Virus record (IMG/VR): IMGVR_UViG_3300047160_005224
Span: 96,403 to 160,402 of that record
From: a virus
Lineage: Duplodnaviria > Heunggongvirae > Uroviricota > Caudoviricetes
Strand: one strand, 5' to 3'
Length of the DNA: 64,000 nucleotides
The position numbers were made by a program, and so were the translations under genes. Shown here piece by piece: positions 1,512-30,550 of this stretch (positions are counted from its first letter, which is position 1; each line of letters starts with the position of its first letter). The notes beneath the pieces were generated by a model. It was not told the DNA's origin, ran no database searches, and saw only the letters and a list, made by a program, of their open reading frames with translations.

Positions 1512-1580
1512 AAATCAACAGGATGCGCTATCTTGGTTTGCTTAACAGGCAAATGATAGTGGTTGCTGAAGGCATCCTAA
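1512..1580 (-). other. tRNA-like mini-element bounded by the inverted repeat AGGAUGC...GCAUCCU
   Basis: A 7-bp outer stem encloses an inner stem CUAUC/GAUAG and an anticodon-like hairpin UUUGC-CUGUUAA-GCAAA (GUU). No T-arm. The same IR bounds the element at 9733-9824. Confidence 0.35.
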
Positions 1581-1583
1581 AAC

Positions 1584-1658
1584 TGGTGCTTCCTACAGGG
1601 ATCGAACCTATGACCGTCGTCTTGTAAGGGCGCTGCTCTACCGCTGAGCTAAGGAAGC
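1584..1658 (-). tRNA. tRNA-Val(UAC)
   Basis: Acceptor GCUUCCU/AGGAAGC plus A-CCA. T-arm AUAGG-UUCGAUC-CCUGU. Anticodon arm GCGCC-CUUACAA-GACGA. Confidence 0.7.
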
Positions 1659-1663
1659 AAAAC

Positions 1664-1738
1664 TGGCATCCCGAGTAGGATTCGAACCCACATTGCAAGG
1701 TTTTGGAGACCCGCATCTTGCCGTTAGAAGATCGAGAT
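1664..1738 (-). tRNA. tRNA-Trp(CCA)
   Basis: Acceptor AUCUCGA/UCGGGAU plus G-CCA. T-arm GUGGG-UUCGAAU-CCUAC. Anticodon loop CUCCAAA, stem has one mismatch. Confidence 0.6.
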
Positions 1739-1748
1739 GTAAACAAAT

Positions 1749-1825
1749 TGGTCGGGGCAGAGGGACTCGAACTCTCGACTTTATGCTCCCAAAGCATACG
1801 CTCTACCAAACTGAGCTATACCCCG
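1749..1825 (-). tRNA. tRNA-Pro(UGG)
   Basis: Acceptor CGGGGUA/UGCCCCG plus A-CCA. T-arm GAGAG-UUCGAGU-CCCUC. Anticodon arm UAUGC-UUUGGGA-GCAUA. Confidence 0.7.
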
Positions 1826-1919
1826 ATTGTGAAAATATGCTGGTTAATTCATTCAACGTCATCCGCAGAGATTACCAGCAACCCTCTTGCAGCACATAGG
1901 CGTTGAATTACTATTTGAT

Positions 1920-1992
1920 TGGAGCGTCTAGAGAGAATCGAACTCTCGCCGGCTGCTTGGAAGGCAGTGGTTCTACCATTAAACTACAGACG
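1920..1992 (-). tRNA. tRNA-Gly(UCC)
   Basis: Acceptor GCGUCUG/UAGACGC plus U-CCA. T-arm GAGAG-UUCGAUU-CUCUC. Anticodon loop CUUCCAA. Confidence 0.7.
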
Positions 1993-1998
1993 CATATT

Positions 1999-2074
1999 TG
2001 GAGCGGGTGAAGGGACTCGAACCCTCAACATCTTCCTTGGCAAGGAAGTACTCTACCAATTGAGCTACACACGC
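1999..2074 (-). tRNA. tRNA-Gly(GCC)
   Basis: T-arm GAGGG-UUCGAGU-CCCUU, CCA encoded. Anticodon arm CUUCC-UUGCCAA-GGAAG. One acceptor mismatch. Confidence 0.65.
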
Positions 2075-2268
2075 GTAATTCTTTTCTTCAACAAACGACG
2101 AACTTTCTTCAGCCACTGCTCTCGGCGCGAACGATGCAAGCCATAGGCAGGAACGAAGTCACAATTATGTTCGTCGAACTCTACAATTTCAACAGCTTCT
2201 TGAAGCAGATTGATTAGTGTAGCTTCATTCACCGAAGCAAGCAACAAGTCAAAATCAACCTTCTTCAT
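2065..2268 (-). CDS. hypothetical small protein (~67 aa)
   Basis: Minus ORF between tRNAs; its stop overlaps the tRNA-Gly 5' end by ~10 nt. Confidence 0.25.
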   Translation of the reverse strand: MKKVDFDLLLASVNEATLINLLQEAVEIVEFDEHNCDFVPAYGLHRSRREQWLKKVRRLLKKRITRV

Positions 2269-2271
2269 AAT

Positions 2272-2348
2272 TGGCACCCAGTACGGGATTCGAACCCGTC
2301 ATCGCCGGCGTGACAGGCCAGCATCTTCACCAAGCAGACCCACTGGGT
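2272..2348 (-). tRNA. tRNA-Asp(GUC), second divergent copy
   Basis: Acceptor ACCCAGU/ACUGGGU plus G-CCA. D-stem GUCU/AGAU. Anticodon arm CUGGC-CUGUCAC-GCCGG. T-arm ACGGG-UUCGAAU-CCCGU. Confidence 0.55.
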
Positions 2349-2354
2349 GTAAAA

Positions 2355-2555
2355 TCAATCCGTTACGCCAGTCAACGGATCGAGCACGACACAGGAGTCG
2401 ACATTCTCGAGCTGGATATTGCCATCCGTTACAACAGTATATAGCACTTTGGCTTCATTGAAGAACACACCGACAACTTGTGCACCAATGTAAGCACCAC
2501 TGAAATGGACGGAAACACGATCATTGATCTGATGACGAGACGGAAGAAGCATCAA
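2355..2555 (-). CDS. hypothetical small protein (66 aa)
   Basis: Minus ORF filling the gap between tRNA genes. Confidence 0.3.
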   Translation of the reverse strand: MMLLPSRHQINDRVSVHFSGAYIGAQVVGVFFNEAKVLYTVVTDGNIQLENVDSCVVLDPLTGVTD

Positions 2556-2570
2556 ACAAACCTCATAATT

Positions 2571-2646
2571 TGGCGTCCCCCGTGAGAATCGAACTCACCT
2601 TTGAGTGGTTAACAGCCACTTGCTTACACCAGATAGCTCGAGAGAC
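2571..2646 (-). tRNA. tRNA-Asn(GUU)
   Basis: T-arm GUGAG-UUCGAUU-CUCAC. Acceptor GUCUCUC/GGGGGAC (G-U pairs) plus G-CCA. Anticodon arm AGUGG-CUGUUAA-CCACU. Confidence 0.7.
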
Positions 2647-2652
2647 ATTGAT

Positions 2653-2729
2653 TGGTGGGCAGGGTGGGAATCGAACCCACTTGAATCTGGTTAAGAGCCA
2701 GGTACATAGCGCCGGTCTGTCACCTACCC
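2653..2729 (-). tRNA. tRNA-Lys(CUU)
   Basis: Acceptor GGGUAGG/CCUGCCC plus A-CCA. T-arm GUGGG-UUCGAUU-CCCAC. Anticodon loop CUCUUAA. Confidence 0.6.
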
Positions 2730-2733
2730 GAAT

Positions 2734-2818
2734 TGGTGATGTGCCTTGGACTCGAACCAAGCATGCCCGTTAAGACGCAGGTTTTACAGACCCGCTGGTA
2801 CACCCGTACCTGCACACC
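2734..2818 (-). tRNA. tRNA-Tyr(GUA), type II, 85 nt
   Basis: Acceptor GGUGUGC/GCACAUC plus A-CCA. Anticodon arm CGGGU-CUGUAAA-ACCUG. Long variable arm. T-arm CUUGG-UUCGAGU-CCAAG. Confidence 0.7.
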
Positions 2819-2822
2819 GCAT

Positions 2823-2899
2823 TGGTAGCGAAGCCCGGGAATCGAACCCGGAACCGAAAGCTTATGAGGCTTCCCATCTGCCATTGATTGTAGCTCGCA
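2823..2899 (-). tRNA. tRNA-Met(CAU); initiator, elongator or Ile2 not distinguished
   Basis: T-arm CCGGG-UUCGAUU-CCCGG. Anticodon arm GAAGC-CUCAUAA-GCUUU. Acceptor register ambiguous. Confidence 0.5.
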
Positions 2900-2933
2900 A
2901 CTGCTAGATCAGCGCTCAAAGCGCAAGATCAAT

Positions 2934-3005
2934 TGGTGGACCGCATGGGAATCGAACCCATCGGAGTCTCCTTGCAAGGGAGTCTTGTACCCCAGTACGC
3001 AGCCC
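2934..3005 (-). tRNA. tRNA-Ala(UGC)
   Basis: Acceptor GGGCUGC/GCGGUCC (G3-U70) plus A-CCA. T-arm AUGGG-UUCGAUU-CCCAU. Anticodon loop CUUGCAA. Confidence 0.6.
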
Positions 3006-3012
3006 ATTTGTT

Positions 3013-3089
3013 TGGTACACCGGACGAGAGTCGAACTCGCATTCCAAGGGTGAAAGCCGAGGCGTCCTAAACCATTAGACGACCGGTGT
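3013..3089 (-). tRNA. tRNA (Glu-UUC-like loop CUUUCAC; anticodon stem does not pair; possible pseudo-tRNA)
   Basis: Acceptor ACACCGG/CCGGUGU plus A-CCA is perfect. D-arm GUCU-AAUGGUUUA-GGAC. T-arm GCGAG-UUCGACU-CUCGU. Anticodon stem is defective. Confidence 0.45.
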
Positions 3090-3097
3090 ATATTTTG

Positions 3098-3173
3098 TGC
3101 TGTCTGACGGATTTCGAACCGTCGCTGCAACATCCGAGGGCATCGGCAAATTATTGCATCTTCCAAGGACAAC
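3098..3173 (-). tRNA. tRNA-like element, probable pseudogene
   Basis: T-arm GACGG-UUCGAAAU-CCGUC and a 6/7 acceptor pairing. No credible anticodon arm; no CCA. Confidence 0.3.
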
Positions 3174-3176
3174 ATT

Positions 3177-3251
3177 TGGTTGTCGGACTGAGAATTGAAC
3201 TCAGCTTCAGCGGTTATCAGCCGCGCGCCCACACCAGCAGGCTCTCCGACA
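3177..3251 (-). tRNA. tRNA-Ile(GAU)
   Basis: Acceptor UGUCGGA/UCCGACA plus A-CCA. T-arm CUGAG-UUCAAUU-CUCAG. Anticodon loop CUGAUAA. Confidence 0.6.
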
Positions 3252-3336
3252 AAATTCTTGAGACCGGAAATTATCCTTCTGCCTGTCTCTTGGCGCATGC
3301 ATATCGGGTTGCCTTAACGCACACAACTGTCGTATT

Positions 3337-3413
3337 TGGTGGGATCAGTGGGACTCGAACCCACAACCTTCGACTTAAAAGGACGCTACTCTAACCAGTT
3401 GAGTTATGACCCC
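3337..3413 (-). tRNA. tRNA-Lys(UUU)?, anticodon stem imperfect
   Basis: Acceptor GGGGUCA/UGAUCCC plus A-CCA. D-arm ACUC-AACUGGUUA-GAGU. Loop CUUUUAA. T-arm GUGGG-UUCGAGU-CCCAC. Confidence 0.5.
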
Positions 3414-3522
3414 CAAAAATTTGTGCCCTGCAGAGCCACCCGATGTTCAGTCCGATGGTTGCTTCTCTCGTCCGGGACCAGACAGGCTTCGAGATGATCA
3501 GCGCAATGCGCAAGATCAAATT

Positions 3523-3596
3523 TGGTGCCCCAATACAGAATCGAACTGTACTCAACGGCTTACAAAACCGTTGCATCACCACAATGCTTTAAGGGC
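3523..3596 (-). tRNA. tRNA-Thr(UGU)
   Basis: T-arm UACAG-UUCGAUU-CUGUA with CCA. Anticodon arm ACGGU-UUUGUAA-GCCGU. One acceptor mismatch. Confidence 0.65.
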
Positions 3597-3776: not shown

Positions 3777-3784
3777 TACAATCC

Positions 3785-6316: not shown

Positions 6317-6684
6317 CAGTGTCTCGTGTCGTTGCTGGTCGCTTGTTGTGCCCGCAGGATTACTTCGGCTTGAGCCAGCATATTGTCGAGATCGACCACC
6401 AACTTCCCGAGATCTTCCGGACCGCCATTGATGAATTTGATCTCGCCAGAATTGGCGCCAGTGAGATAGCGCTTCACGAAGACGCGATTGCCATTGGTTT
6501 GGATGTAGTCGGCATCGTCGTACTTGGCGTAGACATAGAAGCCAGGCAGAGAGTGGACGCTCTTCGGGAACAGCTCGTCGAGGACAGGATCACCAGTCTT
6601 CGGGATCGCGCCATCACGAACCAAGTTCTTGGCGGCGTACGCGAGGGCACCGAAGACAAAATTCAACTGCTCGTTGTTCATCAC
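6316..6684 (-). CDS. hypothetical protein (122 aa)
   Basis: Minus ORF; ATGA stop/start overlap with the downstream gene. Confidence 0.55.
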   Translation of the reverse strand: MMNNEQLNFVFGALAYAAKNLVRDGAIPKTGDPVLDELFPKSVHSLPGFYVYAKYDDADYIQTNGNRVFVKRYLTGANSGEIKFINGGPEDLGKLVVDLDNMLAQAEVILRAQQATSNDTRH

Positions 6685-7214
6685 GAAATCCTTGATTCAA
6701 TTTGATGCTGGAAGGAATAGAAGCGCGTCTTCGGATCGTAATTGAACTGGATCGTCAACACGAACCTGGCCGATGATGTGTCTTCCATCTTCTGCTTGAA
6801 GTCACCGAATTCGTAACGACGAACCTTGCAGAAGTAGTCGTAGACTTTGCTCATCGTGTAGCCACGAGTTCCGCCGCCACTCACGAAGTCATCGACGAAC
6901 ACCGGAAGGAAGTGTTCGTCGATTTCTTCCTTGATGAATTCGAAGATGCTGTGTTCCACAGACTCACCATGAGACTTCTCGTTCTCCTTGCGAACGTAAG
7001 CCATGGCATACTGAAATTTGGGGAAACTGCGCTGAAGCTCGAGGGAGAGGGCGGTCGCCGAGGCAATGCCCGACATGCCGCTGTAACAGAGGATGGGGAT
7101 CTTCTTGTTCTTCTTGGAACGCTGCTTACAGTACTCCACCAACGCCTTTGCCCATACGATTGCCTGTTCATTAAGCTGTGACGGCTTCTGGGCAAGGCTG
7201 TAGTGCGTGGTCAT
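6681..7214 (-). CDS. type I phosphoribosyltransferase-fold protein
   Basis: PRPP-binding-like motif PVFVDDFVSGGGT. ~178 aa from the MTTHYS start; the full ORF runs to 7286. Confidence 0.45.
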   Translation of the reverse strand: MTTHYSLAQKPSQLNEQAIVWAKALVEYCKQRSKKNKKIPILCYSGMSGIASATALSLELQRSFPKFQYAMAYVRKENEKSHGESVEHSIFEFIKEEIDEHFLPVFVDDFVSGGGTRGYTMSKVYDYFCKVRRYEFGDFKQKMEDTSSARFVLTIQFNYDPKTRFYSFQHQIESRIS

Positions 7215-7376
7215 GGCGCGCTGGTCTCCGACGAAGGTTTGGGCGGTACAAAGAAGGGGTGGGCAACTCACACTCCCTACGATCATTATACGCTATGGCG
7301 TCGGAAAAGCTAGAACTTAATTCGTAGTCGGATCAACAACTTACGTAGAAGCGGTCAATGTTCGACTAACATTGAG

Positions 7377-7467
7377 TGGCGGAAGGCATAGGAATCGAAC
7401 CCAAAGCGCCGGTTAGACGCTCAATCCGTTTTCGAAACGGTTCCAAACCCAGTTTGGTTTACCTTCC
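7377..7467 (-). tRNA. tRNA-Ser(CGA), type II, 91 nt
   Basis: Acceptor GGAAGGU/GCCUUCC plus G-CCA. Anticodon arm ACCGU-UUCGAAA-ACGGA. Long variable arm. T-loop UUCGAUU. Confidence 0.55.
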
Positions 7468-7476
7468 AATGTGGAC

Positions 7477-7707
7477 TTACGGATGAAGTCCAGCGTTAAC
7501 ATATCGGTTCAGTTCCACAAAGAAACCGATCCAGCCTAGGATACCGAAAAAGATTGACAGAGAAGCACAGACGATCCTTCCAGTCAGACTCTCTTTCCTC
7601 TCAGCATGCTTCATTCCCTCCAGCAGTAGGAGTCCTAACAGAAGACATCCAACAGTGGAGAAGAACAAGATTTGTGCGGAAGCCAGGAAAGAGATCAATG
7701 CAAGCAT
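7477..7707 (-). CDS. small membrane protein (76 aa, 2 TM segments)
   Basis: Hydrophobic minus ORF. Confidence 0.45.
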   Translation of the reverse strand: MLALISFLASAQILFFSTVGCLLLGLLLLEGMKHAERKESLTGRIVCASLSIFFGILGWIGFFVELNRYVNAGLHP

Positions 7708-7721
7708 GTACCACCTGAAAT

Positions 7722-7800
7722 TGGTGCCCTAGACAGGACTCGAACCTGCATGATTCCAGTTAGCTTTCTCTTCGTTCGGAACGAAGCAGCTTACAAGGGC
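7722..7800 (-). tRNA. aberrant or rearranged tRNA-like gene with Arg(CCG)-type anticodon hairpin
   Basis: Acceptor GCCCUUG/CUAGGGC plus A-CCA. T-arm GCAGG-UUCGAGU-CCUGU. Hairpin CUUCG-UUCCGAA-CGAAG follows the acceptor directly. D-arm-like AGCUAACUGGAAU sits after the anticodon arm. Confidence 0.35.
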
Positions 7801-7805
7801 AATTG

Positions 7806-8030
7806 CTAAAGAGATTCCCAACAATCGATGCAATCAATGATATTATCGACGAGTTCGTTGTAATCTCTACCTGTGGTGTTCAATCCACCATTCGGTTGTT
7901 CACTGATTGCGATGTATTCGCCGTCCAATCCGATGGACACGTCAAACTCATAGGAACAGTTGTTACCATCAACAATCATCTTCATATTGATCACATGCTC
8001 ATAGCCGGGGTTCTGTTCTAGCCTGATCAT
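7806..8030 (-). CDS. hypothetical protein (~74 aa, start MIRLEQ)
   Basis: Minus ORF; N-terminus trimmed. Confidence 0.4.
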   Translation of the reverse strand: MIRLEQNPGYEHVINMKMIVDGNNCSYEFDVSIGLDGEYIAISEQPNGGLNTTGRDYNELVDNIIDCIDCWESL

Positions 8031-8394
8031 TTTTCTCACCGGAACTCGAATCCGGAGACGTCCCAATAGACGTTGCAGCAACCCGAGTCTCTAGAAGGAG
8101 AGTTACCAGACTCTGTTTGCCTTGCATGCTATATCACGGTGGTTTTAGCGATGATTGATGTCCATTTGGTCCAATCATCTCCCACTCGCTCTCCACGCAT
8201 GCCCCGAACTTCCTCTAACAGCAGAATCAAACACTTCGTAGAACTCAAGTAGCTACTCTTGAGCTCAATCAGAAACCGATCTAGCACAGTTCACGTGATT
8301 GGTGTCCAGATCAGAAACCCAAGTTCGGCTTTCCGGGCGTACATTAGGGAAGTGCTTGAGTCTGCTGCCAGCGATCAGTCGGCATGTGAAACTT

Positions 8395-8469
8395 TGGAGC
8401 CCAAGTCGGTGTTCGAATCCGATTCTACTGCTTACGAGGCAGTTGCATCACCACTCATGCTTCATGGGC
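8395..8469 (-). tRNA. tRNA-Thr(CGU)
   Basis: Acceptor GCCCAUG/CUUGGGC plus U-CCA. D-arm GCAU-GAGUGGUG-AUGC. Anticodon arm ACUGC-CUCGUAA-GCAGU. T-arm UCGGA-UUCGAAC-ACCGA. Confidence 0.6.
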
Positions 8470-8481
8470 AAAACTTATGAA

Positions 8482-8922
8482 TCAAAGATCTCTCAGCGCA
8501 AGGTCGCCAGGAAAGATCTTGTTAGAACGCAGTTCTGTGTATCCAATGTACGGATACGACACGTAATGATAGTCTTTCCTCATTTCCTTGTCGATTCGAC
8601 CGTATTCCTCGACCTTCTGACGATAATTGGCATATTCAGGATTGCGAGAACCACCAACAGGATATGGTGGATACGGATTGGCTCGAGAAGCTGCTTCGTA
8701 GTCATACGGAATCTTTGTTTCGCGATGTTCGAACACACGACGAAACTTCTTGATCTGCATGACAACACGATTGCCTCGACGACCAAGATAGCGACCGAAG
8801 TGCAAGTTTGCACTTCCAGCACACTTTGTCACAGCAACAGCCGGATCACCAGGATGGAGAGTCATTCCATAACTGTTGGTGAACGGAACTTCCTCATATG
8901 GCTTGATACGTGGCGTTGCCAT
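8482..8922 (-). CDS. hypothetical protein (~147 aa, start MATPRIK)
   Basis: Minus ORF 8482-9048 trimmed because a tRNA-Ser occupies 8944-9034. Confidence 0.5.
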   Translation of the reverse strand: MATPRIKPYEEVPFTNSYGMTLHPGDPAVAVTKCAGSANLHFGRYLGRRGNRVVMQIKKFRRVFEHRETKIPYDYEAASRANPYPPYPVGGSRNPEYANYRQKVEEYGRIDKEMRKDYHYVSYPYIGYTELRSNKIFPGDLALRDL

Positions 8923-8943
8923 CAGAACCTCATAACAAAGAAT

Positions 8944-9034
8944 TGGCGGAGAGAGGCTGGAATCGAACCGCTGGCGCTTCCGCGCTCGCATGACTTTCAA
9001 GGTCATCGCTGCATCCCCGGCAGCATCACTCTCC
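8944..9034 (-). tRNA. tRNA-Ser(UGA), type II, weak T-stem
   Basis: Acceptor GGAGAGU/UCUCUCC plus G-CCA. D-stem GCUGC/GCAGC. Anticodon arm AUGAC-CUUGAAA-GUCAU. Variable-arm hairpin GCGC-GGAA-GCGC. T-loop UUCGAUU. Confidence 0.5.
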
Positions 9035-9197
9035 AAATAAGTGAGCACTATCTCTAATGCTCATCCACCGACCGAAACCGATGGAGTGGTATTGGTCCCG
9101 TGTTTTACGTGTTGACTCGGGTTCACGCATGGGATACCATGATCTAGGGACGCCATTTCTGGCTAATCCTCCACCACCCAGTTTACGTCTGGGAACG

Positions 9198-9374
9198 TCA
9201 GTCGTCAAGACCCACAAAATCTGCAAGTTCCTGTCGCGCAGCAAGAAAAGCCTCGCGCAGTCGATGGAACTCAACATCCTTGATTTCCGAGAAAGAGGAG
9301 TATGAATTGAAGGCATAATCAAAGCCTTCACATTCAACCACCGTCTGAACGTACTCAAGGTCTTTCTGCTTCAT
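9198..9374 (-). CDS. hypothetical protein (~58 aa, start MKQKDLEY)
   Basis: Minus ORF trimmed to avoid the tRNA at 9390. Confidence 0.4.
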   Translation of the reverse strand: MKQKDLEYVQTVVECEGFDYAFNSYSSFSEIKDVEFHRLREAFLAARQELADFVGLDD

Positions 9375-9389
9375 GACAATTCTCGTAGC

Positions 9390-9466
9390 TGGTACCGGAG
9401 ATGGGAATCGAACCCACACTTTGGAAGATTTTAAGTTTTCCGCCTCTGCCTTTGGGCTACTCCGGC
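9390..9466 (-). tRNA. tRNA with anticodon UAA (Leu codon UUA) in a type-I body
   Basis: Acceptor GCCGGAG/CUCCGGU plus A-CCA. T-arm GUGGG-UUCGAUU-CCCAU. Anticodon arm GAAAA-CUUAAAA-UCUUC. Confidence 0.45.
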
Positions 9467-9470
9467 AAAT

Positions 9471-9562
9471 TGGTGCTTCAGGTAGGAATCGAACCTACAT
9501 CGTTCCCTTATCTGGGGATCATGGCTTATAAGACCACCGCACTACCATTGTGCTACAGAAGC
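9471..9562 (-). tRNA. type II tRNA, 92 nt, anticodon loop CUUAUAA (UAU); isotype uncertain
   Basis: Acceptor GCUUCUG/CUGAAGC plus A-CCA. D-arm GCAC-AAUGGUA-GUGC. Anticodon arm GUGGU-CUUAUAA-GCCAU. 22-nt variable arm. T-arm GUAGG-UUCGAUU-CCUAC. Confidence 0.45.
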
Positions 9563-9646
9563 AAAGGCGTCGACAATCATCATACATGTCGACTGGTCTA
9601 TCAAACGTTGTCCGTTTCGTAATCGTCCGGCGTTTGACAGAACGTT

Positions 9647-9723
9647 TGGTACCCATGACAGGATTCGAACCTGCACTGAACAGAACCTAAATCTGTTGTC
9701 TCTACCAGTTGGACTACATGGGC
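9647..9723 (-). tRNA. tRNA with anticodon UAG (Leu codon CUA) in a type-I body
   Basis: Acceptor GCCCAUG/CAUGGGU plus A-CCA. Anticodon arm ACAGA-UUUAGGU-UCUGU, G37. T-arm GCAGG-UUCGAAU-CCUGU. Confidence 0.5.
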
Positions 9724-9732
9724 AAAACTATC

Positions 9733-9824
9733 AGGATGCGCGATATACGGGATTCGAACCCGTTAAGTTTGCTTTCAAGGCAAAGTGCGAACCAATCGCG
9801 ATTATTGTTTGCTGCAGGCATCCT
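9733..9824 (-). other. tRNA-like element (UGA anticodon hairpin plus T-arm, no D-arm) inside the inverted repeat AGGAUGC...GCAUCCU
   Basis: Inner stem CGCGAU/AUCGCG, anticodon arm UUUGC-CUUGAAA-GCAAA, T-arm ACGGG-UUCGAAU-CCCGU. Bounded by the same IR as 1512-1580. Confidence 0.35.
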
Positions 9825-9897
9825 AGTTACTGATCGATCAGCGCATTAAGCGCCAGGATCATGTTTGGTTCCGGTGTCACTCACACCGGAGAAGAGA

Positions 9898-10068: not shown

Positions 10069-10099
10069 GGCAGAACTCCAGGGTTTGGCGGGTAGAACT

Positions 10100-10170: not shown

Positions 10171-10175
10171 ATGAT

Positions 10176-10269: not shown

Positions 10270-10274
10270 AGAAT

Positions 10275-10363
10275 TGGCGGGAAAAGTTGGAGTCGAACCA
10301 TTGGTTGATTTTGCTGTAACGACTCTACTTCAGAGTCAGTCCGGCGCCAGCCGGGCTTTTCCC
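10275..10363 (-). tRNA. type II tRNA, 89 nt; anticodon hairpin GACUC-UGAAGUA-GAGUC, isotype uncertain (Leu-like?)
   Basis: Acceptor GGGAAAA/UUUUCCC plus G-CCA is perfect. D-stem CCGG/CCGG. Weak T-stem. Confidence 0.45.
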
Positions 10364-10373
10364 GTTTGAAACT

Positions 10374-10451: not shown

Positions 10452-10539
10452 ATATCAACAATCACAGCGTGTGGTTTGTCGCGAGACAATTCCAATAATA
10501 GTTCGCTAGTGGGTTGCGGAACACACGCTAAAGTCTTTG

Positions 10540-17463: not shown

Positions 17464-17508
17464 TGGCAGGGAGGCATCTGTTGCCTCCACAGAGTAGATA
17501 GGAGAAGT

Positions 17509-23905: not shown

Positions 23906-24976
23906 TTACAGGCGCGGCAACAATTGGAGCATCGTCTCGATGATTTGGAAGTGATCCTCAAACATGTTCGAAGATCCGATGTCATTCAGCGGAAGCCAGA
24001 AAGAACGCACCACGCCACCATCCGGATCACACTTGGTCTTAAGTTTCGGAAGATCCTTTGTGTCATCCAGCTTGATGAGGAATGCGGTGGTTACAGTTCT
24101 GCCGCGCAAAGAACGTTCCGGATCATCGAAGATCTCTTTGGCGACAATTCGTCCACGAAGAACTTCCTTCTGGATATTGATGCCGGTCTCTTCGTCCAGT
24201 TCGCGAAGCATCGAATCGACAAGCCGATCCTTCTGTTCGACGAAGCCACCAGGGAGACAGTACAATCCCTTGCCTGGTGTCTTACCACGTTCGCATAGAA
24301 GAATGTGACCCGATTGGATCACGACAGCGTCCACCGTCAAAAAGGTCGGTGGATATGGAGCGACTTCCCAACTCTTCTTGTACTTGGAGATGTCTTTGTA
24401 TTCCTCGATCAAACATTGGATCTGATCGGTATTCTTCAACAGCAAAAGCTTGTTGAAGACAGATTGCGGAACACTTCCGTGCGCGTAGGCAAGCTGATCC
24501 GTGAAATAGAACTCACGAATCTTCGTGGCGTCGATGTTGAAGCTTTCACCAGGACCGAGTTCCTTGTACGGAATCTCGCTGAAAGCGAAATTCGGGAACC
24601 AGTCGAGATAACGCGAGGTGTTGTCCTTGTTGTGACCTACCAAGACAACAGATCCCTTGCGCGGAAGCTTGTAGTGGTCCAGAATGACCTTCACACGTCC
24701 ATTGACGCGCGAGATCCACGCCTGATCGCTCGGGCTGTCAAACACATAAGTCACATCCGGCGCAGGAAGACCCAACTCCACGCAGGAGTTCAAGATCATC
24801 TGCTCGCGTTGTGCGATCGTGAATGGATTTTTGATGGTGCGTGGTCCGCCAGTATCACCTAGCAGGACCAGCACTCGATGAGCGATCTTGAACGCTTCCG
24901 AGATCAGATGCATGTGTCCGTTGTGAACAGGATGCATCCGACCGATGACAATTGCGACTTCGTATTGCTTGGACAT
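23906..24976 (-). CDS. natV: bifunctional NMN adenylyltransferase / Nudix ADP-ribose pyrophosphatase (NadM/NatV-like)
   Basis: N-terminal HxGH nucleotidyltransferase motif (HPVHNGH). C-terminal Nudix box GGFVEQKDRLVDSMLRELDEETGI. Confidence 0.75.
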   Translation of the reverse strand: MSKQYEVAIVIGRMHPVHNGHMHLISEAFKIAHRVLVLLGDTGGPRTIKNPFTIAQREQMILNSCVELGLPAPDVTYVFDSPSDQAWISRVNGRVKVILDHYKLPRKGSVVLVGHNKDNTSRYLDWFPNFAFSEIPYKELGPGESFNIDATKIREFYFTDQLAYAHGSVPQSVFNKLLLLKNTDQIQCLIEEYKDISKYKKSWEVAPYPPTFLTVDAVVIQSGHILLCERGKTPGKGLYCLPGGFVEQKDRLVDSMLRELDEETGINIQKEVLRGRIVAKEIFDDPERSLRGRTVTTAFLIKLDDTKDLPKLKTKCDPDGGVVRSFWLPLNDIGSSNMFEDHFQIIETMLQLLPRL

Positions 24977-27110: not shown

Positions 27111-28544
27111 TCAGAGATCGTAGCGCGGGTTCATCAGGGTCTTCAGCATGACCGACTCGGGAGTCATCAGCTGGGCACCCAGGATCGACTTCGCGATCGA
27201 CGGCGAGAAGCCAGAGATCAGAGCAGCACCAGACTGGTGCTGGGTGACCGGACTGTTGCCGACACGACCGTTGACGTTCCAGAACACCAGCTGCGGCATC
27301 GCGTAACCAGCCGCCTTGTACTTCGCTTCGATGTTCTCGAAGTTGGTAGAGCGGTTGGCAGCGCAGGAGTCGAACTCCATGTCCGAAATCACCAGCACCT
27401 TGGTCGGCAGGTCTTCGTTCGACAGACCGTGCTTCTTCGCGGTGTTGAGGATCAACTCGAACGCAGCCTGGAGATTGGTGTTCATCTCCCACTTCGCGGT
27501 CTCGAGCTGCGACACACGATCACGCAGAGTTCCCTTAACGACCTGGAGCGTCGGAGTGTTCGAGAACGTGATGAACGCATCCTTGAACGGTCCGTTCAGC
27601 TTCTCGGACACGTACAATGCCAGCGAGATGCAGATGTCCATCGGAGTGACGTTGCCGATGTTTCCGCGATTGGTGCCATAGCCCCAGTTAGTCATCGACC
27701 CAGAGGTGTCGGCGACCACGATCAGGCGCTCGTCGGAACCTTCCAGCCAATTCGGCAGAGCCTTCCACTGCTCATTGGCAGCGTCCTGCTCGACCTTGTT
27801 GTAGGAAGCACGCAGCGAACGGATGATGTCGTACGGGAACACCGCCGAGGCGTTGATCTTGGCTTCGCCAGCCTGGACCTTTGTCACGAAGGTCTGGAAC
27901 TTCTCTGGCGCGCGCTTCGAGAAGGCACGCTTGTAGCGAGCGAACGCCACGGACGGAACCTGGTTGTACTTGATTTCGTCCCACTTGCCGGCGCACATCG
28001 CCTGCTCGACGGTGTTCGACAGATTGACGATCGTCTTGCGGTACTGCTTTGGCGTGTAGCCAAGCAAATGACGTAAGCGGACAGCGTCTTCGCCCTTGCG
28101 AGGCAGCCACTTTGCCAACAGACCATTCTTCTGTGCGATACCTTCGCGCACTAGTTCGACGACTTCGTTTTCGATCGGCGAACGCAGACCGATGAGAATG
28201 TCGTCCCAGCGACCGAGTTCCGGAACCTTGGTCAGGACCGCGAGAGCGGCATCCTTGTGGTTGCGGATCAGCCAGCCGAACAGATTGCGAAACTGCTGAC
28301 GTTCACCAGCACCTTCGCGAGCATCACGCAGCCACTGGACCAGGCGCAGAGCCAGGTATTCGTCTTCGGCAAAAGCCTTGGCGAACTGAGCGGTGAGGTC
28401 ATTGCCACGAGACGCGCCGGCGATGAAGAACAGATCCACGAGCGCCGACAGCGAGGACTTGAAGGTCTTTGCGCCATTGTAGGTCTGGGCAGTGTTCTGC
28501 GAGGCAGAAGATGCGATTGCGTTGACGAGCTTGTTACGTGCCAT
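27111..28544 (-). CDS. vWA-domain protein with long alpha-helical N-terminal domain (possibly TROVE/Ro60-like)
   Basis: 477 aa; MIDAS motif VVADTSGSMT in the C-terminal third. TROVE assignment is inference from domain layout only. Confidence 0.5.
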   Translation of the reverse strand: MARNKLVNAIASSASQNTAQTYNGAKTFKSSLSALVDLFFIAGASRGNDLTAQFAKAFAEDEYLALRLVQWLRDAREGAGERQQFRNLFGWLIRNHKDAALAVLTKVPELGRWDDILIGLRSPIENEVVELVREGIAQKNGLLAKWLPRKGEDAVRLRHLLGYTPKQYRKTIVNLSNTVEQAMCAGKWDEIKYNQVPSVAFARYKRAFSKRAPEKFQTFVTKVQAGEAKINASAVFPYDIIRSLRASYNKVEQDAANEQWKALPNWLEGSDERLIVVADTSGSMTNWGYGTNRGNIGNVTPMDICISLALYVSEKLNGPFKDAFITFSNTPTLQVVKGTLRDRVSQLETAKWEMNTNLQAAFELILNTAKKHGLSNEDLPTKVLVISDMEFDSCAANRSTNFENIEAKYKAAGYAMPQLVFWNVNGRVGNSPVTQHQSGAALISGFSPSIAKSILGAQLMTPESVMLKTLMNPRYDL

Positions 28545-28586
28545 GATGTAACTCCTTACGGATTGAGTTGGGTTTGTTTGCGGATT

Positions 28587-29072
28587 TCAATCCCAGTCGT
28601 TCGCACCATGTTGCTCAGGTGCGAACTCCAAGTTTGGACAAAACTTTTGCTTATGAGCCGTGTACAACGTCGATACGAATCCAGGCTCAGGAGTCGTACC
28701 ATTGCGCTTCTTGCGCCTTCTATCCGAAAGATATGTTACGCCTTCATGGACACAAAAGATAGCGCCGATCACCAAAAGAATTGCTTGGAGAATCAGCCCA
28801 ACCATACCCATTGCTTCAACTCCATGAAGTTCTTTGACATAGAAATAGAAGCCAAAGCCTTTGACGATGCACACAATCCAGAAAACAAGAATTGAGAACA
28901 CCGCCGAAGCAGCAAGCATCGCAAAGAACGAAAACAACAACATTCCCAGCGTGATGACGCGAGCATACTTGCAGAAGTTTGGTTGATGCCAACCACGTTG
29001 CATGGAAGTGTAGCTTTGTGAGGTGAAGAAAGAGTAGATCCAGAAGTGCCAGGAATTCTCTTTGATGAACAT
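28587..29072 (-). CDS. integral membrane protein (161 aa, ~4 TM)
   Basis: Hydrophobic minus ORF. Confidence 0.5.
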   Translation of the reverse strand: MFIKENSWHFWIYSFFTSQSYTSMQRGWHQPNFCKYARVITLGMLLFSFFAMLAASAVFSILVFWIVCIVKGFGFYFYVKELHGVEAMGMVGLILQAILLVIGAIFCVHEGVTYLSDRRRKKRNGTTPEPGFVSTLYTAHKQKFCPNLEFAPEQHGANDWD

Positions 29073-29082
29073 GATATAGATC

Positions 29083-29319
29083 TCAGGGTTTGATTGAGAA
29101 ACTCAATTTGCGCTCAACGGTGAGCTCTTCGAGACGGAAAGCACGAAACGACTTTCGCCAGTAAGCGTTCTGTTGTTTGTCGTTGTTCTCGATCCACTCA
29201 AGGAGTTTGATTTCATCATCAAACTCCTTGAGCACTTCCACTTGAACAGACCGTGGATGATCCGGATCGTAGTAATCATGCTCAGCTCGCGTCTCTTTGT
29301 AGATGACGGCGAACTTTGT
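29083..29319 (-). CDS. hypothetical protein (~78 aa, start MTKFAVIYKE)
   Basis: Minus ORF, trimmed from 29400. Confidence 0.4.
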   Translation of the reverse strand, partial: TKFAVIYKETRAEHDYYDPDHPRSVQVEVLKEFDDEIKLLEWIENNDKQQNAYWRKSFRAFRLEELTVERKLSFSIKP

Positions 29320-29324
29320 CATGA

Positions 29325-30314
29325 TCAGAACTTCATCAAGAACGTCTGGCCAGGAATCAGCTTGCGGTTCGTGCTGGTCGATTGGACGTAGATCTGCCAA
29401 TCACCGAAGTCGCCGGGCTTGACATTGGTTTCGTAGCCCGGAAGACCCAGCACATTGCGAGCGTTGGCACCGGAGTAGATCTTGCCGTCCTTGCGGTTGC
29501 GGATCGCGATCTGCTTCTGACCCTGGATCGTTTCCGGCTTGGTCAGTTCGTAGAACACCGAACCGAGGATGTAGCCGCGACCCGTCACCTGCTGAGTGTA
29601 TTCGCGGATCGGCTGCGCACTGGTTGCAGTCACCGAGTATTGACGGAAGGAATTATCTTCGACGAGAGCCGCCTTGACGTCGCTCGTGGTCAGATTCTTG
29701 GTGTCGACGAACAGGCGAGTCGAGCCGACCGAACCGGAAGCACGGCTGACGCTGTAGCTCTGATAAGTGTCGACCAAGCGACGACCAACTTCTTCGAAGC
29801 CAGTACTGGAGCGCGTGTTCCAGACTTCGATGTTGCCAGCCGGGAAGCCGCAGTTCTTGGCATAGTGCACGCCAGAGATGTCCGGAACCAGAGCAGCGAC
29901 AGTCCAGTTTTCCGGCAGAGAACTGATCAGGCTCTTCAGCGTGAAAGCGCTGACCTTGCGAGAAGCGTTCTCCTGGCCATCGGTGATTGCATACAGCAGA
30001 TAGCTGTGATCTTCATCGGCGCCGGTGAGGAGGTTCTTGTGTTCGCTGATGGCTTGTTCGACCGCATCGAGGAGAGCAGTCTGGCCATTGGAATTGAAGC
30101 GGAAATCGGCGAGAGCTTCTGGATGACGCAGATGGAGCTTGCGCTCGACACGGTCATTGAAGGTATAGAGGGAGATGCGGGTGACCTGTTCTGCCTGAGA
30201 CAGCGGGTCCTTGAGACCACGGATCACCTGCTCGACGGCGCGAGCATGGGAGGACATGGAGCCAGAAGCGTCCACGACGAAGATGACATTGTTGACGAGA
30301 GTCTTGTTCGACAT
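29325..30314 (-). CDS. vWA-domain protein (second copy; ~330 aa from MSNKTLVNN)
   Basis: MIDAS motif FVVDASGSMS near the N-terminus. Confidence 0.6.
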   Translation of the reverse strand: MSNKTLVNNVIFVVDASGSMSSHARAVEQVIRGLKDPLSQAEQVTRISLYTFNDRVERKLHLRHPEALADFRFNSNGQTALLDAVEQAISEHKNLLTGADEDHSYLLYAITDGQENASRKVSAFTLKSLISSLPENWTVAALVPDISGVHYAKNCGFPAGNIEVWNTRSSTGFEEVGRRLVDTYQSYSVSRASGSVGSTRLFVDTKNLTTSDVKAALVEDNSFRQYSVTATSAQPIREYTQQVTGRGYILGSVFYELTKPETIQGQKQIAIRNRKDGKIYSGANARNVLGLPGYETNVKPGDFGDWQIYVQSTSTNRKLIPGQTFLMKF

Positions 30315-30477
30315 TGCGGTGTATTCCTTGTATGGATCGTGTGAGATGTATTGCGATGTGTATCGTCGTATGTCTTTGTATCTCGTTGGCGGAAGGAGGA
30401 GGTCTCGATCCCCAGTCAGTTGCCCGACCAGAACGCTTTCCAGGCGCCTCCAGCACCCCGGCTGGTTCACCTTCCAT

Positions 30478-30550
30478 TGGACTCCCCGACAGGACTCGAA
30501 CCTGCAGATGGCTCACTAGGATTAAGCCGTTGATCCAATTCAACGAGGAG
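30478..30550 (-). tRNA. aberrant tRNA-like gene (9-nt loop AAUCCUAGU between GGCUU/GAGCC)
   Basis: Acceptor CUCCUCG/CGGGGAG plus U-CCA is good. T-arm GCAGG-UUCGAGU-CCUGU. D-arm UUGA-AUUGGA-UCAA. Anticodon loop is non-canonical. Confidence 0.35.

What the first reader, a model, noticed from the sequence alone, without database searches (positions are those of the whole stretch)
1512..30550. Degenerate, rearranged and inverted-repeat-bounded tRNA-like elements scattered outside the tRNA array
Several intergenic sequences have authentic acceptor and T-arm pairing (GGUUCGANUCC, CCA) but abnormal cores. 7722-7800 is a tRNA whose D-arm-like segment sits after an Arg(CCG)-type anticodon hairpin. 30478-30550 has a 9-nt loop. 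3098-3173 and 3013-3089 have failed anticodon stems. Two elements at 1512-1580 and 9733-9824 are each enclosed by the same 7-bp inverted repeat AGGAUGC...GCAUCCU and contain anticodon-like hairpins (GUU, UGA) without a D-arm. A bare T-arm fragment CCGGA-ACUCGAA-UCCGG lies at 8041-8057. These could be decaying tRNA duplicates, tRNA-derived regulatory or processing structures, or small mobile tRNA-like elements.
Basis: seen in the sequence. Interest (0 to 1): 0.6.

Follow-up and report, generated by a model that had tools for sequence, protein, structure and literature searches.

The report
Phage Ro-like protein's small partner RNAs
The two "inverted-repeat-bounded tRNA-like elements" belong to a widespread, apparently undescribed family of small phage RNAs that sit in tRNA arrays or beside a Ro60-like protein gene, probably as that protein's Y-RNA-like partners; the other odd loci are unusual tRNAs or unrelated structures.

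Summary
The finding lumps three kinds of thing.

(2) 3013-3089 is tRNA-Glu. 7722-7800 and 30478-30550 are non-canonical tRNA-Arg(CCG/CCU). 3098-3173 is an unclassified tRNA-like relic.

(3) The "bare T-arm" at 8041-8057 is the terminal hairpin of a conserved, covarying ~365-nt structured leader RNA (8030-8397).

These are not decaying duplicates and not mobile elements.

The parts
1519..1578 (-). Family copy 'E1'. Terminal stem AGGAUGC/GCAUCCU, motif CUUCAGCAA, inner stem CUAUC/GAUAG, anticodon-like hairpin UUUGC-CUGUUAA-GCAAA, 3' CUG. It fills a tRNA-sized slot between tRNA-Val(UAC) and tRNA-Cys.
   Evidence: Model R1 scores it 56.5 bits, but it is in the training set. Near-identical orthologues occur in L117, L004 and L026. 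Rfam Dictyostelium Class I model: 21.8 bits, E 0.037.
9732..9824 (-). Family copy 'E2'. Same stem and motif (CUGCAGCAA), enclosing a tRNA-like module in normal order: small D-like hairpin, anticodon-like hairpin UUUGC-CUUGAAA-GCAAA, and T-arm ACGGG-UUCGAAU-CCCGU.
   Evidence: R1 36.2 bits, E 7e-7, not in the training set. Orthologues in L117 and DLP_6 give 5 compensatory pairs out of 22; their loop triplet is UUC rather than UGA. The inner part scores 25.6 bits as Rfam tRNA, below threshold.
224..287 (-). Stem GAAUGC/GCAUUC, motif UUCCAGCAA, no anticodon-like hairpin. It lies between tRNA-Phe and tRNA-Gln(CUG).
   Evidence: Scanner hit. R1 42.5 bits, in the training set. The orthologue at L117 9946-10003 has a covarying inner stem.
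10465..10528 (-). Marginal fourth candidate. Stem GCGUGU/ACACGC, motif GUUCCGCAA (one mismatch), 3' UG. Intergenic, just upstream of tRNA-Leu(CAA).
   Evidence: R1 15.5 bits, E 0.13; scanner with one mismatch allowed. Weak.
28559..28592 (-). Possible degenerate gene-adjacent copy in the spacer just upstream of the DUF2828 gene: GAUUGA-AAUCCGCAA-...-UCAAUC-CG. The stem is the same as in the DLP_6 element at the syntenic place (L110 3948-3987).
   Evidence: Direct reading compared. Not detected by R1. Weak.
27111..28544 (-). Gene for a 477-aa DUF2828 + DUF7788/vWA protein with a Ro60-like fold. It is the inferred protein partner of the RNA family.
7722..7800 (-). Rearranged tRNA-Arg(CCG)-like gene. 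Intact acceptor stem, T-arm and CCA; anticodon hairpin CUUCG-UUCCGAA-CGAAG; no D arm. A D-loop-like segment AGCUAACUGGAAU lies after the anticodon arm.
   Evidence: Rfam tRNA 35.7 bits. Default ARAGORN fails; relaxed ARAGORN calls Arg(ccg). DLP_6 has a canonical tRNA-Arg(CCG) at L116 6027-6100 with the same acceptor 5' strand.
30478..30550 (-). Isolated non-canonical tRNA-Arg(CCU)-like gene with CCA. The D arm abuts the acceptor stem. It ends at the start of a vWA protein gene.
   Evidence: No Rfam hit. Relaxed ARAGORN calls Arg(cct). DLP_6 has an annotated tRNA-Arg-CCT about 1 kb upstream of its DUF2828 gene, but the two sequences are unrelated.
3098..3173 (-). tRNA-like relic. 6-bp acceptor stem, T-arm with an 8-nt loop, no D arm, no anticodon loop, and it ends ACAA rather than CCA.
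   Evidence: No Rfam hit. No homologue by BLAST in the loci held. The same slot in L117 holds a T-arm, closed acceptor hairpin and D-arm RNA of YrlA type, by eye.
3013..3089 (-). tRNA-Glu(UUC), ordinary apart from two anticodon-stem mismatches.
   Evidence: ARAGORN; Rfam 41.6 bits; orthologue comparison.
8030..8397 (-). Conserved structured RNA of about 365 nt leading into the ORF that starts at 8029. The hairpin at 8041-8057 is its last helix.
   Evidence: 83% identity to L117. 97 predicted pairs, 23 of them compensatory. The 3' half is conserved in L125 without the T-loop-like hairpin. No Rfam hit.
10278..10364 (-). tRNA-like RNA with a 9-bp acceptor stem and CCA, a D-like hairpin, and an exact UUACAGCAA just after its middle hairpin.
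   Evidence: Rfam tRNA-Sec 24.2 bits, below threshold. R1 13.7 bits. Fold. Relaxed ARAGORN calls 'Gln(ctg)'. Unresolved.
   Evidence: Rfam 41.0 bits; orthologues in L117 and DLP_6.

Best explanation
The elements at 224-287, 1519-1578 and 9732-9824 are small non-coding RNAs of one conserved phage family.

What is shown:
- The 5' and 3' ends pair in a 6-7 bp stem.
- A single-stranded NUNCAGCAA motif follows the 5' strand, and the 3' end is CUG.
- The part in between is a swappable module. It can be an anticodon-stem-loop look-alike, a nearly whole tRNA, a circularly permuted T-arm/acceptor/D-arm domain, or something else.
- The genes sit in tRNA slots on the tRNA strand.

What is inferred:
- They are made from the tRNA precursor transcripts.
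- The stem plus motif is the docking site for the phage's Ro60-like DUF2828-vWA protein (27111-28544). This would parallel the way Y RNAs dock on Ro60 through the helix formed by their ends.
- The tRNA-mimicking module then tethers or gates something that recognises tRNA parts.

More speculatively, the members with anticodon-like loops act as decoys or adaptors in the conflict over tRNA cleavage by host defence nucleases.

The other loci in the finding are separate matters: tRNA-Glu, two non-canonical tRNA-Arg genes, one tRNA-like relic, and one hairpin of a large structured leader RNA.
For: Family is real:
- The pattern occurs twice in the window against 0.08 expected.
- Pattern scans of IMG/VR returned true relatives with variable insides, inside tRNA arrays and co-oriented with the tRNAs in all five loci checked.
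- A structural scanner found 56 hits against 1.0 expected after shuffling.
- In 40 members, 5 of the 7 stem pairs show changes on both sides (35 cells). No shuffle out of 500 reached the observed number of such cells or the covariation score.
- Model R1 finds E2, which was not used in training, at E 7e-7. It finds nothing in 30 kb of the T5 tRNA region.

Link to the protein:
- Among 109 loci fetched by DNA pattern alone, tblastn with the window protein hit only 11. All 11 carry the RNA. In 9 the gene lies within 1.2 kb of the element and on the same strand.
- In annotated phages the RNA lies directly beside the gene, on the same strand, in Stenotrophomonas DLP_6, Felixounavirus, Campylobacter F352, Listeria LP-Mix, Mycobacterium Archie, Enterococcus EF5, Klebsiella FBKp34 and Fusobacterium Fnu1.

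The protein is Ro-like:
- The vWA metal-site motif D279-x-S281-x-S283 and many N-terminal Arg/Lys are invariant across 40 homologues.
- Mycobacteriophage homologues are annotated 'Ro-like RNA binding protein'.

Likeness to Y RNAs:
- Long members carry a T-arm, closed acceptor hairpin and D-arm domain. They give full-length but sub-threshold YrlA hits of 36.1 and 39.6 bits.
- Known Y RNAs are encoded next to Ro60 on the same strand and use the stem formed by their ends (PMC4201824).

Anticodon mimicry: 16 of 40 short members have a 4-5 bp stem closing a 7-nt loop of the form Y-U-NNN-R-N, against 0.7 expected.
Against: - No binding, expression or end-mapping data exist, so the RNA-protein link rests on genomic association and analogy.
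- In this window the three clear copies lie about 17-27 kb from the DUF2828 gene. The only gene-adjacent candidate (28559-28592) is degenerate.
- No element was found within 5-6 kb of the gene in Vibrio EniLVp02 or in a Staphylococcus Twort-like phage.
- The motif differs from the GNCGAAN0-1G motif of canonical Y RNAs, and no Rfam family reaches its threshold.
- Stem pairing, the 5' G and the 3' UG were selection criteria of my scanner. Their constancy in alignment A3 is therefore partly by construction.
- Many copies sit just upstream of the gene, which also fits a cis-acting leader.
- Whether T5 lacks a DUF2828 gene was not verified, so the negative control is incomplete.
Confidence: 0.68

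Rival explanations
1. The elements are cis-acting leaders or trailers of the DUF2828 mRNA, for example an autoregulatory operator bound by the protein, rather than free-standing small RNAs.
For: Many copies lie 20-110 nt upstream of the gene's start: Campylobacter, Listeria (three copies), Enterococcus, Fusobacterium, DLP_6, L084, L086 and L055.
Against: Other copies lie downstream of the gene: Archie, Klebsiella and L013. Others lie kilobases away in tRNA slots, several per array (window; L070 with eight; L111 with four). The layout, with the two ends paired, suits an excised small RNA.
Confidence: 0.1
2. They are decaying tRNA duplicates (pseudogenes) with no function of their own.
For: Some members enclose tRNA-like parts (E2, L031). 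The arrays do contain degenerate tRNA-like loci such as 3098-3173.
Against: The non-tRNA motif and the stem are conserved in phages of Proteobacteria, Firmicutes, Actinobacteria, Fusobacteria and Campylobacterota. E1 is nearly identical in four phage contigs. The stems covary.
Confidence: 0.03
3. They are small mobile elements, MITE-like or cassette-like, bounded by inverted repeats, that carry tRNA fragments.
For: There are several copies per genome with different 'cargo'. Homing endonuclease genes are scattered in these arrays.
Against: The 'repeat' changes by compensatory substitution and is only 6-7 bp. Copies are strictly on the tRNA/gene strand. Orthologues occupy the same slots in diverged phages. 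No target-site duplications were seen by eye, and no formal search was made.
Confidence: 0.04
4. They are minimal 'armless' decoding tRNAs that read codons on the ribosome.
For: The loops are anticodon-like, with U33 and A37. The 7-bp stem looks like an acceptor stem.
Against: There is no encoded CCA, although the array tRNAs read carry one. Short members have no T arm. The same stem accompanies different 'anticodons'. The triplet of E2 differs between orthologues, UGA against UUC. Normal tRNA-Asn(GUU) and tRNA-Ser(UGA) are present in the array. Many members have no such loop.
Confidence: 0.03
5. They are processing or punctuation structures for the polycistronic tRNA precursor, such as nuclease entry sites or folding insulators, unrelated to the DUF2828 protein.
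For: They occupy tRNA-sized slots with tRNA-like spacers.
Against: They also occur beside the DUF2828 gene where no tRNA is annotated within 5-6 kb (Fusobacterium Fnu1, Mycobacterium Archie). A conserved single-stranded 9-mer points to sequence-specific recognition.
Confidence: 0.08

Closest known systems
Bacterial and phage Y RNAs (YrlA, Rfam RF02553; Yrl1/Yrl2 of Thermus phage phiLo) bound by TROVE-type Ro60/Rsr
   Same: They are small RNAs encoded next to, and co-oriented with, a ring-plus-vWA Ro protein. The 5' and 3' ends pair into the presumed docking stem. The internal module mimics tRNA, and in long members it is the same T-arm, closed acceptor and D-arm arrangement. Some copies have a CCA-ended acceptor, like M. 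smegmatis YrlA (PMC4201824; PMC12135203).
   Different: The protein is of the DUF2828/DUF7788 family and gives no hit to Pfam TROVE. The conserved RNA motif is UUACAGCAA, not GNCGAAN0-1G/CGAA. Most members are much shorter (46-70 nt), carry only an anticodon-like hairpin or no tRNA part, occur in several copies, and are embedded in tRNA arrays. Rfam YrlA scores stay below threshold (at most 39.6 against 69).
Dictyostelium Class I RNAs (Rfam RF01414; Kjellin et al. 2021, PMC7919456)
   Same: The length is similar (42-65 nt). A covarying 6-bp stem joins the ends and begins with G. A conserved motif, CCUUACAGCAA, follows the 5' strand directly, and the 3' end is CUGU. The rest is variable. RF01414 matches eight phage elements at 22.6-30.8 bits across the four loci scanned. 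It is also the only Rfam match over E1 in a local search.
   Different: They are eukaryotic, have their own DUSE promoter, and were reported as absent outside Dictyostelia. The known binder is the RRM protein Rnp1A. Phage scores are below the gathering score of 41.5, and RF01414 gave no hit at E<=1 in five further phage loci that carry R1 elements. The near-invariant U sits one position later in the motif. Whether Dictyostelium has a DUF2828 protein could not be checked here.
Stable 'tRNA-like RNAs with unknown functions' of phage T5, annotated in its tRNA region
   Same: They are non-tRNA small stable RNAs interspersed among phage tRNA genes on the same strand.
   Different: Model R1 finds no family member in the 30-kb T5 tRNA region (best 10 bits). 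The T5 RNAs are 73-719 nt and were not compared further.

Membership tests
Y RNA / YrlA (RF02553) | Encoded close to, and on the same strand as, a Ro60-type protein gene | tested here: met
   Met for the family in 8 of 10 annotated phage genomes and in 9 metagenomic loci. In this window the clear copies are 17-27 kb from the gene, on the same strand.
Y RNA / YrlA (RF02553) | 5' and 3' ends pair to form the stem that carries the Ro-binding site | tested here: met
   Terminal 6-7 bp stem with 5 of 7 pairs covarying.
Y RNA / YrlA (RF02553) | GNCGAAN0-1G (CGAA) motif in the 5' strand | tested here: not met
   The conserved motif is NUNCAGCAA/UUACAGCAA. Definition of the canonical motif.
Y RNA / YrlA (RF02553) | tRNA-like domain: T-arm, closed acceptor-like stem, D-arm | tested here: inconclusive
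   Present in long members (L031 6557-6644, L111 6827-6952, L122 6689-6796). Absent from E1 and 224-287. E2 has a tRNA-like module in normal order.
Y RNA / YrlA (RF02553) | Rfam gathering score (69 bits) | tested here: not met
   Best scores are 39.6 and 36.1 bits. There is no hit on the window's three family copies.
Y RNA / YrlA (RF02553) | Physical binding to the Ro protein | not testable with these tools
   Needs EMSA, RIP or a structure.
Dictyostelium Class I RNA (RF01414) | 42-65 nt RNA with a covarying 6-bp stem joining the ends, 5' G paired to the C of the 3' CUGU | tested here: met
   E1 is 60 nt and 224-287 is 64 nt. Stem covariation. E2 (93 nt) exceeds the range. The G and UG were scanner criteria. 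Hits found by model R1 vary at these positions (Archie ends AG).
Dictyostelium Class I RNA (RF01414) | 11-nt motif CCUUACAGCAA directly after the 5' stem strand | tested here: inconclusive
   CAGCAA is invariant in alignment A3, where it was a selection criterion. Several phages carry UUACAGCAA exactly. The window copies have CUUCAGCAA, CUGCAGCAA and UUCCAGCAA. The near-invariant U is at motif position 4, not 3.
Dictyostelium Class I RNA (RF01414) | Rfam gathering score (41.5 bits) | tested here: not met
   21.8 bits for E1. At most 30.8 bits in other phages. No hit at E<=1 in five further phage loci.
Dictyostelium Class I RNA (RF01414) | DUSE promoter about 60 nt upstream; dictyostelid host | not tested
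   Not applicable to a phage tRNA operon, and no search was made.
tRNA (RF00005) | Cloverleaf scoring above the Rfam gathering score (29 bits) | tested here: inconclusive
   Met by 3013-3089 (41.6), 7725-7800 (35.7, with the D arm deleted) and 8398-8469 (41.0). Not met by the inner part of E2 (25.6), 30478-30550 (no hit), 3098-3173 (no hit) or E1 (no hit).
Ro60 / TROVE protein family | Helical-repeat ring followed by a vWA domain with a metal-binding (MIDAS) motif | tested here: met
Ro60 / TROVE protein family | Sequence match to Pfam TROVE (PF05731) or to solved Ro60 chains | tested here: not met
   Only DUF2828, DUF7788 and weak vWA families match, even at E<=10. No PDB sequence match.

The most novel reading that the evidence does not exclude
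The phage RNAs and the Dictyostelium Class I RNAs are one ancient family. Under this reading they are the cognate ligands of DUF2828-type Ro60-like proteins from phages to eukaryotes. That would give the 'orphan' Class I RNAs a partner and an origin. In addition, the phage members with anticodon-like loops would be decoys or adaptors aimed at anticodon-arm nucleases such as PARIS AriB. About 11 of the 16 such loops carry UUU, UGU, CGU or GUU, the published AriB target set.
Probability: 0.25. Interest if true: 0.9.

Novelty: new variant of a known kind. Interest (0 to 1): 0.74.

Why it matters
DUF2828 'Ro-like' proteins are encoded by at least 711 sequenced phages. These include Felix O1-like and Listeria P100-like relatives of phages used in applications (the application itself is from my own knowledge), as well as Campylobacter, Enterococcus, Klebsiella and mycobacterial phages. 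No RNA partner for them has been described in Rfam 15 or in the literature I could search.

A defined RNA signature makes the system directly testable. The signature is a stem, UUACAGCAA, CUG, and a swappable tRNA-mimic module.

It also explains many 'pseudo-tRNA' or unannotated gaps in phage tRNA arrays. It extends the Ro/Y-RNA principle to a second protein family. It further suggests that phages deploy sets of tRNA-part mimics, which bears on the current picture of tRNA-targeting immunity and counter-defence.

The resemblance to Dictyostelium Class I RNAs, if it reflects homology, would overturn the view that those RNAs are unique to dictyostelids.

Tried and rejected
- Near-identity search of the array against INPHARED found only one tRNA match.
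- The search for related loci with an array-embedded protein found nothing in IMG/VR. One relative had no retrievable DNA.
- Many hits of the pattern scans were chance matches inside GC-rich ORFs and were discarded by eye.
- The complement of the motif (TTGCTGMAG) gave no meaningful pairing target in the window.
- The afdb50 fold library was unavailable, so eukaryotic DUF2828 homologues, including any in Dictyostelium, could not be listed.
- The paper listing Class I RNA-binding proteins (Avesson et al. 2011) is not held. Searches for DUF2828, UCP015417 and the motif returned nothing relevant.
- I considered RNase P RNA for 8030-8397 because of CR-I-like and CR-V-like strings. I rejected it because the P4 helix does not pair by eye and no Rfam RNase P model hits.
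- I looked for RNA-repair genes near the DUF2828 gene in the window and found none among 17 ORFs scanned.
- ROOL and GOLLD were considered for the large RNA; there is no hit in the window.
- R1 found no element in Vibrio EniLVp02, Staphylococcus PG-2021_43 or L125.


Full report
CONTEXT

The window comes from a phage with no close relative in INPHARED. Its best protein matches are to Stenotrophomonas phage DLP_6: 57.5% for NrdA and 62% for the DUF2828 protein. The genes and RNAs examined here lie on the - strand. ARAGORN finds 33 tRNAs in two blocks (58-3596 and 7377-10451) and a permuted tmRNA. Rfam confirms most of these tRNAs and adds two that ARAGORN misses, at 8398-8469 and 7725-7800.

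CHECKING THE OBSERVATION

- 3013-3089 is called tRNA-Glu(UUC) by both tools. It does have two mismatched anticodon-stem pairs. The Glu(UUC) genes of L117 and DLP_6 fold with fully paired anticodon stems.
The acceptor stem, T-arm and CCA are intact, an Arg(CCG) hairpin directly follows the 8-9 region, and a D-loop-like stretch comes after it. Rfam still scores it 35.7 bits, treating the D arm as deleted and 17 nt as a variable-region insert. DLP_6 has a canonical tRNA-Arg(CCG) with the same acceptor 5' strand. I read the window copy as a rearranged derivative of unknown competence.
- 30478-30550 is not found by default ARAGORN or by Rfam, even at E<=10. It folds as a cloverleaf with a 6-bp anticodon stem and a 7-nt loop AUCCUAG. 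ARAGORN at a relaxed threshold calls it tRNA-Arg(CCU). DLP_6 has an annotated tRNA-Arg-CCT at a comparable place upstream of its DUF2828 gene, but with an unrelated sequence.
- 3098-3173 has an acceptor stem and a T-arm but no anticodon loop and no CCA. No tool classifies it, and it has no BLAST homologue in the loci held.
- 8041-8057 is a 5-bp hairpin with a T-loop-like loop on the - strand.

THE AGGAUGC-BOUNDED ELEMENTS ARE A CONSERVED FAMILY

The two elements share AGGATGCCTKCAGCAA at the 5' end and GCATCCTG at the 3' end (2 matches against 0.08 expected). Scanning IMG/VR for these strings returned chance matches inside ORFs. It also returned true relatives that keep the ends but differ inside. 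In all five loci checked, the true relatives lie within tRNA arrays and on the tRNA strand.

Relaxing the search to 'a stem, three bases, CAGCAA..., the stem's partner, UG' found many more copies whose stem sequences differ in a compensatory way. There were 56 hits against 1.0 expected from shuffled sequence, almost all on the tRNA strand. Examples are GGAUUC/GAAUCC, GAAAGC/GCUUUC, GGCUAG/CUAGCC and GACCGU/ACGGUC.

In an alignment of 40 short members, 5 of the 7 stem pairs show changes on both sides (35 cells). No shuffle out of 500 reached the observed number of such cells or the covariation score. Shifting the 3' partners by 1-3 columns drops pairing to 33-47%. One caveat applies: pairing, the first G and the final UG were scanner criteria. 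The extra A-U pair was not a criterion, and it holds in 38 of 40 members.

A covariance model built from this alignment (R1) was run over the whole window with filters off. It gives three clear copies: 1517-1580 (56.5 bits), 222-290 (42.5 bits) and 9730-9826 (36.2 bits, E 7e-7). The last was not in the training set. Two marginal matches lie at 10463-10531 and 10267-10328.

WHAT LIES INSIDE THE STEM

Sixteen of the 40 short members carry a 4-5 bp stem closing a 7-nt loop of the form Y-U-NNN-R-N, mostly C-U-NNN-A-A. Shuffling gives 0.7. The triplets include GUU, UGU, CGU, UUU, CAU, UCU and GUA.

E1 and E2 share the same hairpin stem, UUUGC/GCAAA, with different triplets. The E2 orthologues in L117 and DLP_6 keep that stem but have UUC where the window has UGA. 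Meanwhile the terminal stem, the D-like hairpin and the T-arm change by compensatory substitutions (5 of 22 pairs from three sequences).

E1 is nearly invariant in four phage contigs. One of these, L117, is otherwise strongly diverged: an array-embedded protein is about 50% identical. L117 keeps all three window elements in the same tRNA slots.

Other members hold other modules:
- no anticodon-like hairpin at all (224-287);
- a nearly whole tRNA (L031 5889-5978);
- a circularly permuted tRNA-like domain, in the order T-arm, acceptor 3' strand, CCA or a closing loop, acceptor 5' strand, D-arm (L026 5331-5451, L031 5762-5878 and 6557-6644, L111 6827-6952).

That permuted layout is the published architecture of the bacterial Y RNA YrlA (PMC4201824). 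These long members give full-length but sub-threshold YrlA matches of 36.1 and 39.6 bits against a gathering score of 69.

THE PROTEIN

Window 27111-28544 encodes a 477-aa DUF2828 + DUF7788/vWA protein, matching PHROG 850 'RNA-binding protein'. A tblastn search against the 109 loci fetched purely by RNA pattern hit 11 loci. All 11 are family-bearing loci. In 9 of them the gene lies within 1.2 kb of the element and on the same strand.

Homologues occur in 711 INPHARED records, some annotated 'Ro-like RNA binding protein'.

ASSOCIATION ACROSS ANNOTATED PHAGES

I fetched the gene's surroundings in ten annotated phage genomes, covering very different hosts. The scanner or R1 finds the RNA immediately beside the gene, on the same strand, in eight:
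- Stenotrophomonas DLP_6, which also has six copies in its tRNA array;
- a Felixounavirus, with four copies starting about 340 nt after the gene;
- Campylobacter F352;
- Listeria LP-Mix_6.2, with three tandem copies upstream;
- Mycobacterium phage Archie, 40 nt downstream;
- Enterococcus EF5;
- Klebsiella FBKp34, with three copies;
- Fusobacterium Fnu1.

It was not found near the gene in a Vibrio phage or a Staphylococcus phage. R1 finds nothing in 30 kb of the T5 tRNA region. I did not verify that T5 lacks the gene.

Across these lineages the motif converges on UUACAGCAA.

In the window, a short degenerate element lies in the spacer just upstream of the gene (28559-28592). It has the same stem as the DLP_6 gene-adjacent copy, but the evidence for it is weak.

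MECHANISM

Shown:
- a conserved, covarying, strand-specific RNA family with a constant 'handle' and a variable tRNA-mimicking module;
- tight genomic linkage of that family to a protein with a Ro60-like fold.

Inferred by analogy with Ro60/Y RNA:
- The handle docks on the protein, as Y RNAs dock through the helix formed by their ends.
- The module tethers or gates a tRNA-recognising factor.
- The RNAs are released from tRNA precursor transcripts.

Speculative: about 11 of the 16 anticodon-like loops carry UUU, UGU, CGU or GUU. These are the published target set of the PARIS nuclease AriB, whose recognition involves U36-A-A-U-C (PMC12409363). Some members (L011, L057, L070 9820-9882) carry exactly UAAUCA. 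This fits a decoy or adaptor role in tRNA-centred conflict. It could equally reflect which tRNAs phages tend to carry.

COMPARISON WITH KNOWN FAMILIES

Canonical Y RNAs (YrlA, phiLo Yrl1/Yrl2) partner TROVE-type Ro60 and carry a GNCGAAN0-1G/CGAA motif. The family here has a different protein family, a different motif and mostly much smaller RNAs. I therefore call it a new variant of the Ro/Y-RNA kind, not a YrlA member.

Several short elements gave sub-threshold hits to the Rfam model for Dictyostelium Class I RNA: 21.8 bits for E1 and up to 30.8 elsewhere, against a gathering score of 41.5. The Rfam consensus is GaUcuC-CUUACAGCAA-...-GagAuC-UG. The published description gives a length of 42-65 nt, a covarying 6-bp stem starting with G, an 11-nt motif after the 5' strand, an end of CUGU and a variable remainder (PMC7919456). 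Both match the phage layout point for point. That paper reports no Class I RNA outside Dictyostelia.

Against equating the two families: scores are below threshold, five other phage loci gave no RF01414 hit at E<=1, and I could not check whether Dictyostelium encodes a DUF2828 protein. I treat common ancestry as an open and interesting possibility.

THE 'BARE T-ARM'

The 8030-8397 gap between tRNA-Thr(CGU) and the next ORF is 83% identical to the corresponding region of L117. RNAalifold predicts 97 pairs, of which 23 change on both sides while staying paired. These include the 8041-8057 hairpin: CCGGA/UCCGG in the window against GUGGG/CCCAC in L117.

A third, more distant homologue (L125) keeps the 3' ~190 nt up to the GAGAAAAAUG start region. 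It has a different final hairpin. The resemblance to a T-arm is therefore probably incidental.

This is a separate, unclassified structured leader RNA.

VERDICT

Its most interesting part is neither tRNA decay nor mobile DNA. It is a widespread Y-RNA-like family tied to a Ro-like phage protein.

Noticed in passing
window 8030-8397 (-): A ~365-nt conserved, highly structured RNA lies between tRNA-Thr(CGU) and the ORF starting at 8029. It is 83% identical to L117. It has 97 predicted pairs, 23 of them compensatory. Its 3' ~190 nt is also conserved in metagenomic contig L125, directly after a tRNA-Ile(UAU). There is no Rfam match. It may be a riboswitch-like or protein-binding leader.
   Followed up: partly
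window 11403-11727 (-): Phage-encoded circularly permuted (two-piece) tmRNA with tag ANDDTFEVRLAA (Rfam tmRNA_permuted, 127 bits). Relatives carry one too: DLP_6 (L116 2808-3151) and L013 6546-6939.
   Followed up: no
window 10278-10364 (-): A tRNA-like RNA with a 9-bp acceptor stem and CCA carries an exact UUACAGCAA right after its middle hairpin. An alternative 6-bp pairing GAGUCG/CGACUC would give it a family-like fold. It may be a hybrid of a tRNA and the family handle.
   Followed up: partly
window 9471-9562 (-); L116 4739-4830; L125 6556-6649 and 7339-7432: tRNA-Ile(UAU) with a ~19-nt insertion in the variable region (a class-II-like long arm), conserved in DLP_6 and L125. This is unusual for tRNA-Ile.
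   Followed up: no
window 8398-8469 (-): tRNA-Thr(CGU) with a U.U pair in the acceptor stem and an atypical T-loop. Default ARAGORN misses it; Rfam finds it at 41 bits.
   Followed up: yes
L117 7255-7339: In the slot where the window has the relic 3098-3173, the relative carries a neat RNA with a T-arm, closed acceptor hairpin and D-arm of YrlA type. It lacks the CAGCAA motif.
   Followed up: partly
L113 4429-4980 (Listeria phage LP-Mix_6.2): A ROOL-like large RNA (87.4 bits, just under Rfam's 99.1) lies about 650 nt upstream of the three family copies and the DUF2828 gene. An RtcB RNA ligase gene lies 1.3 kb downstream of that gene.
   Followed up: no
window 16018-17490, 23906-24976, 6681-7286 (-): NAD-salvage genes (NAMPT; a NUDIX/cytidylyltransferase-like fusion) lie between the tRNA array and the DUF2828 gene, in the same order as in DLP_6. 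A phosphoribosyltransferase-like ORF sits inside the array.
   Followed up: no
L116 7531-7613 and 10517-10588 (DLP_6); L120 (Enterococcus EF5): These published genomes annotate several 'tRNA-Pseudo' or 'tRNA-OTHER' features in their arrays. Family elements, in contrast, are unannotated gaps or are overlapped by small hypothetical CDSs, for example L116 3874-3940 under CDS AAY80_159.
   Followed up: partly
L124 (phage T5, record positions 28-42 kb): The T5 tRNA region carries eight annotated stable RNAs of unknown function, three of them described as 'tRNA-like' or 'putative tRNA-like'. None matches model R1.
   Followed up: partly
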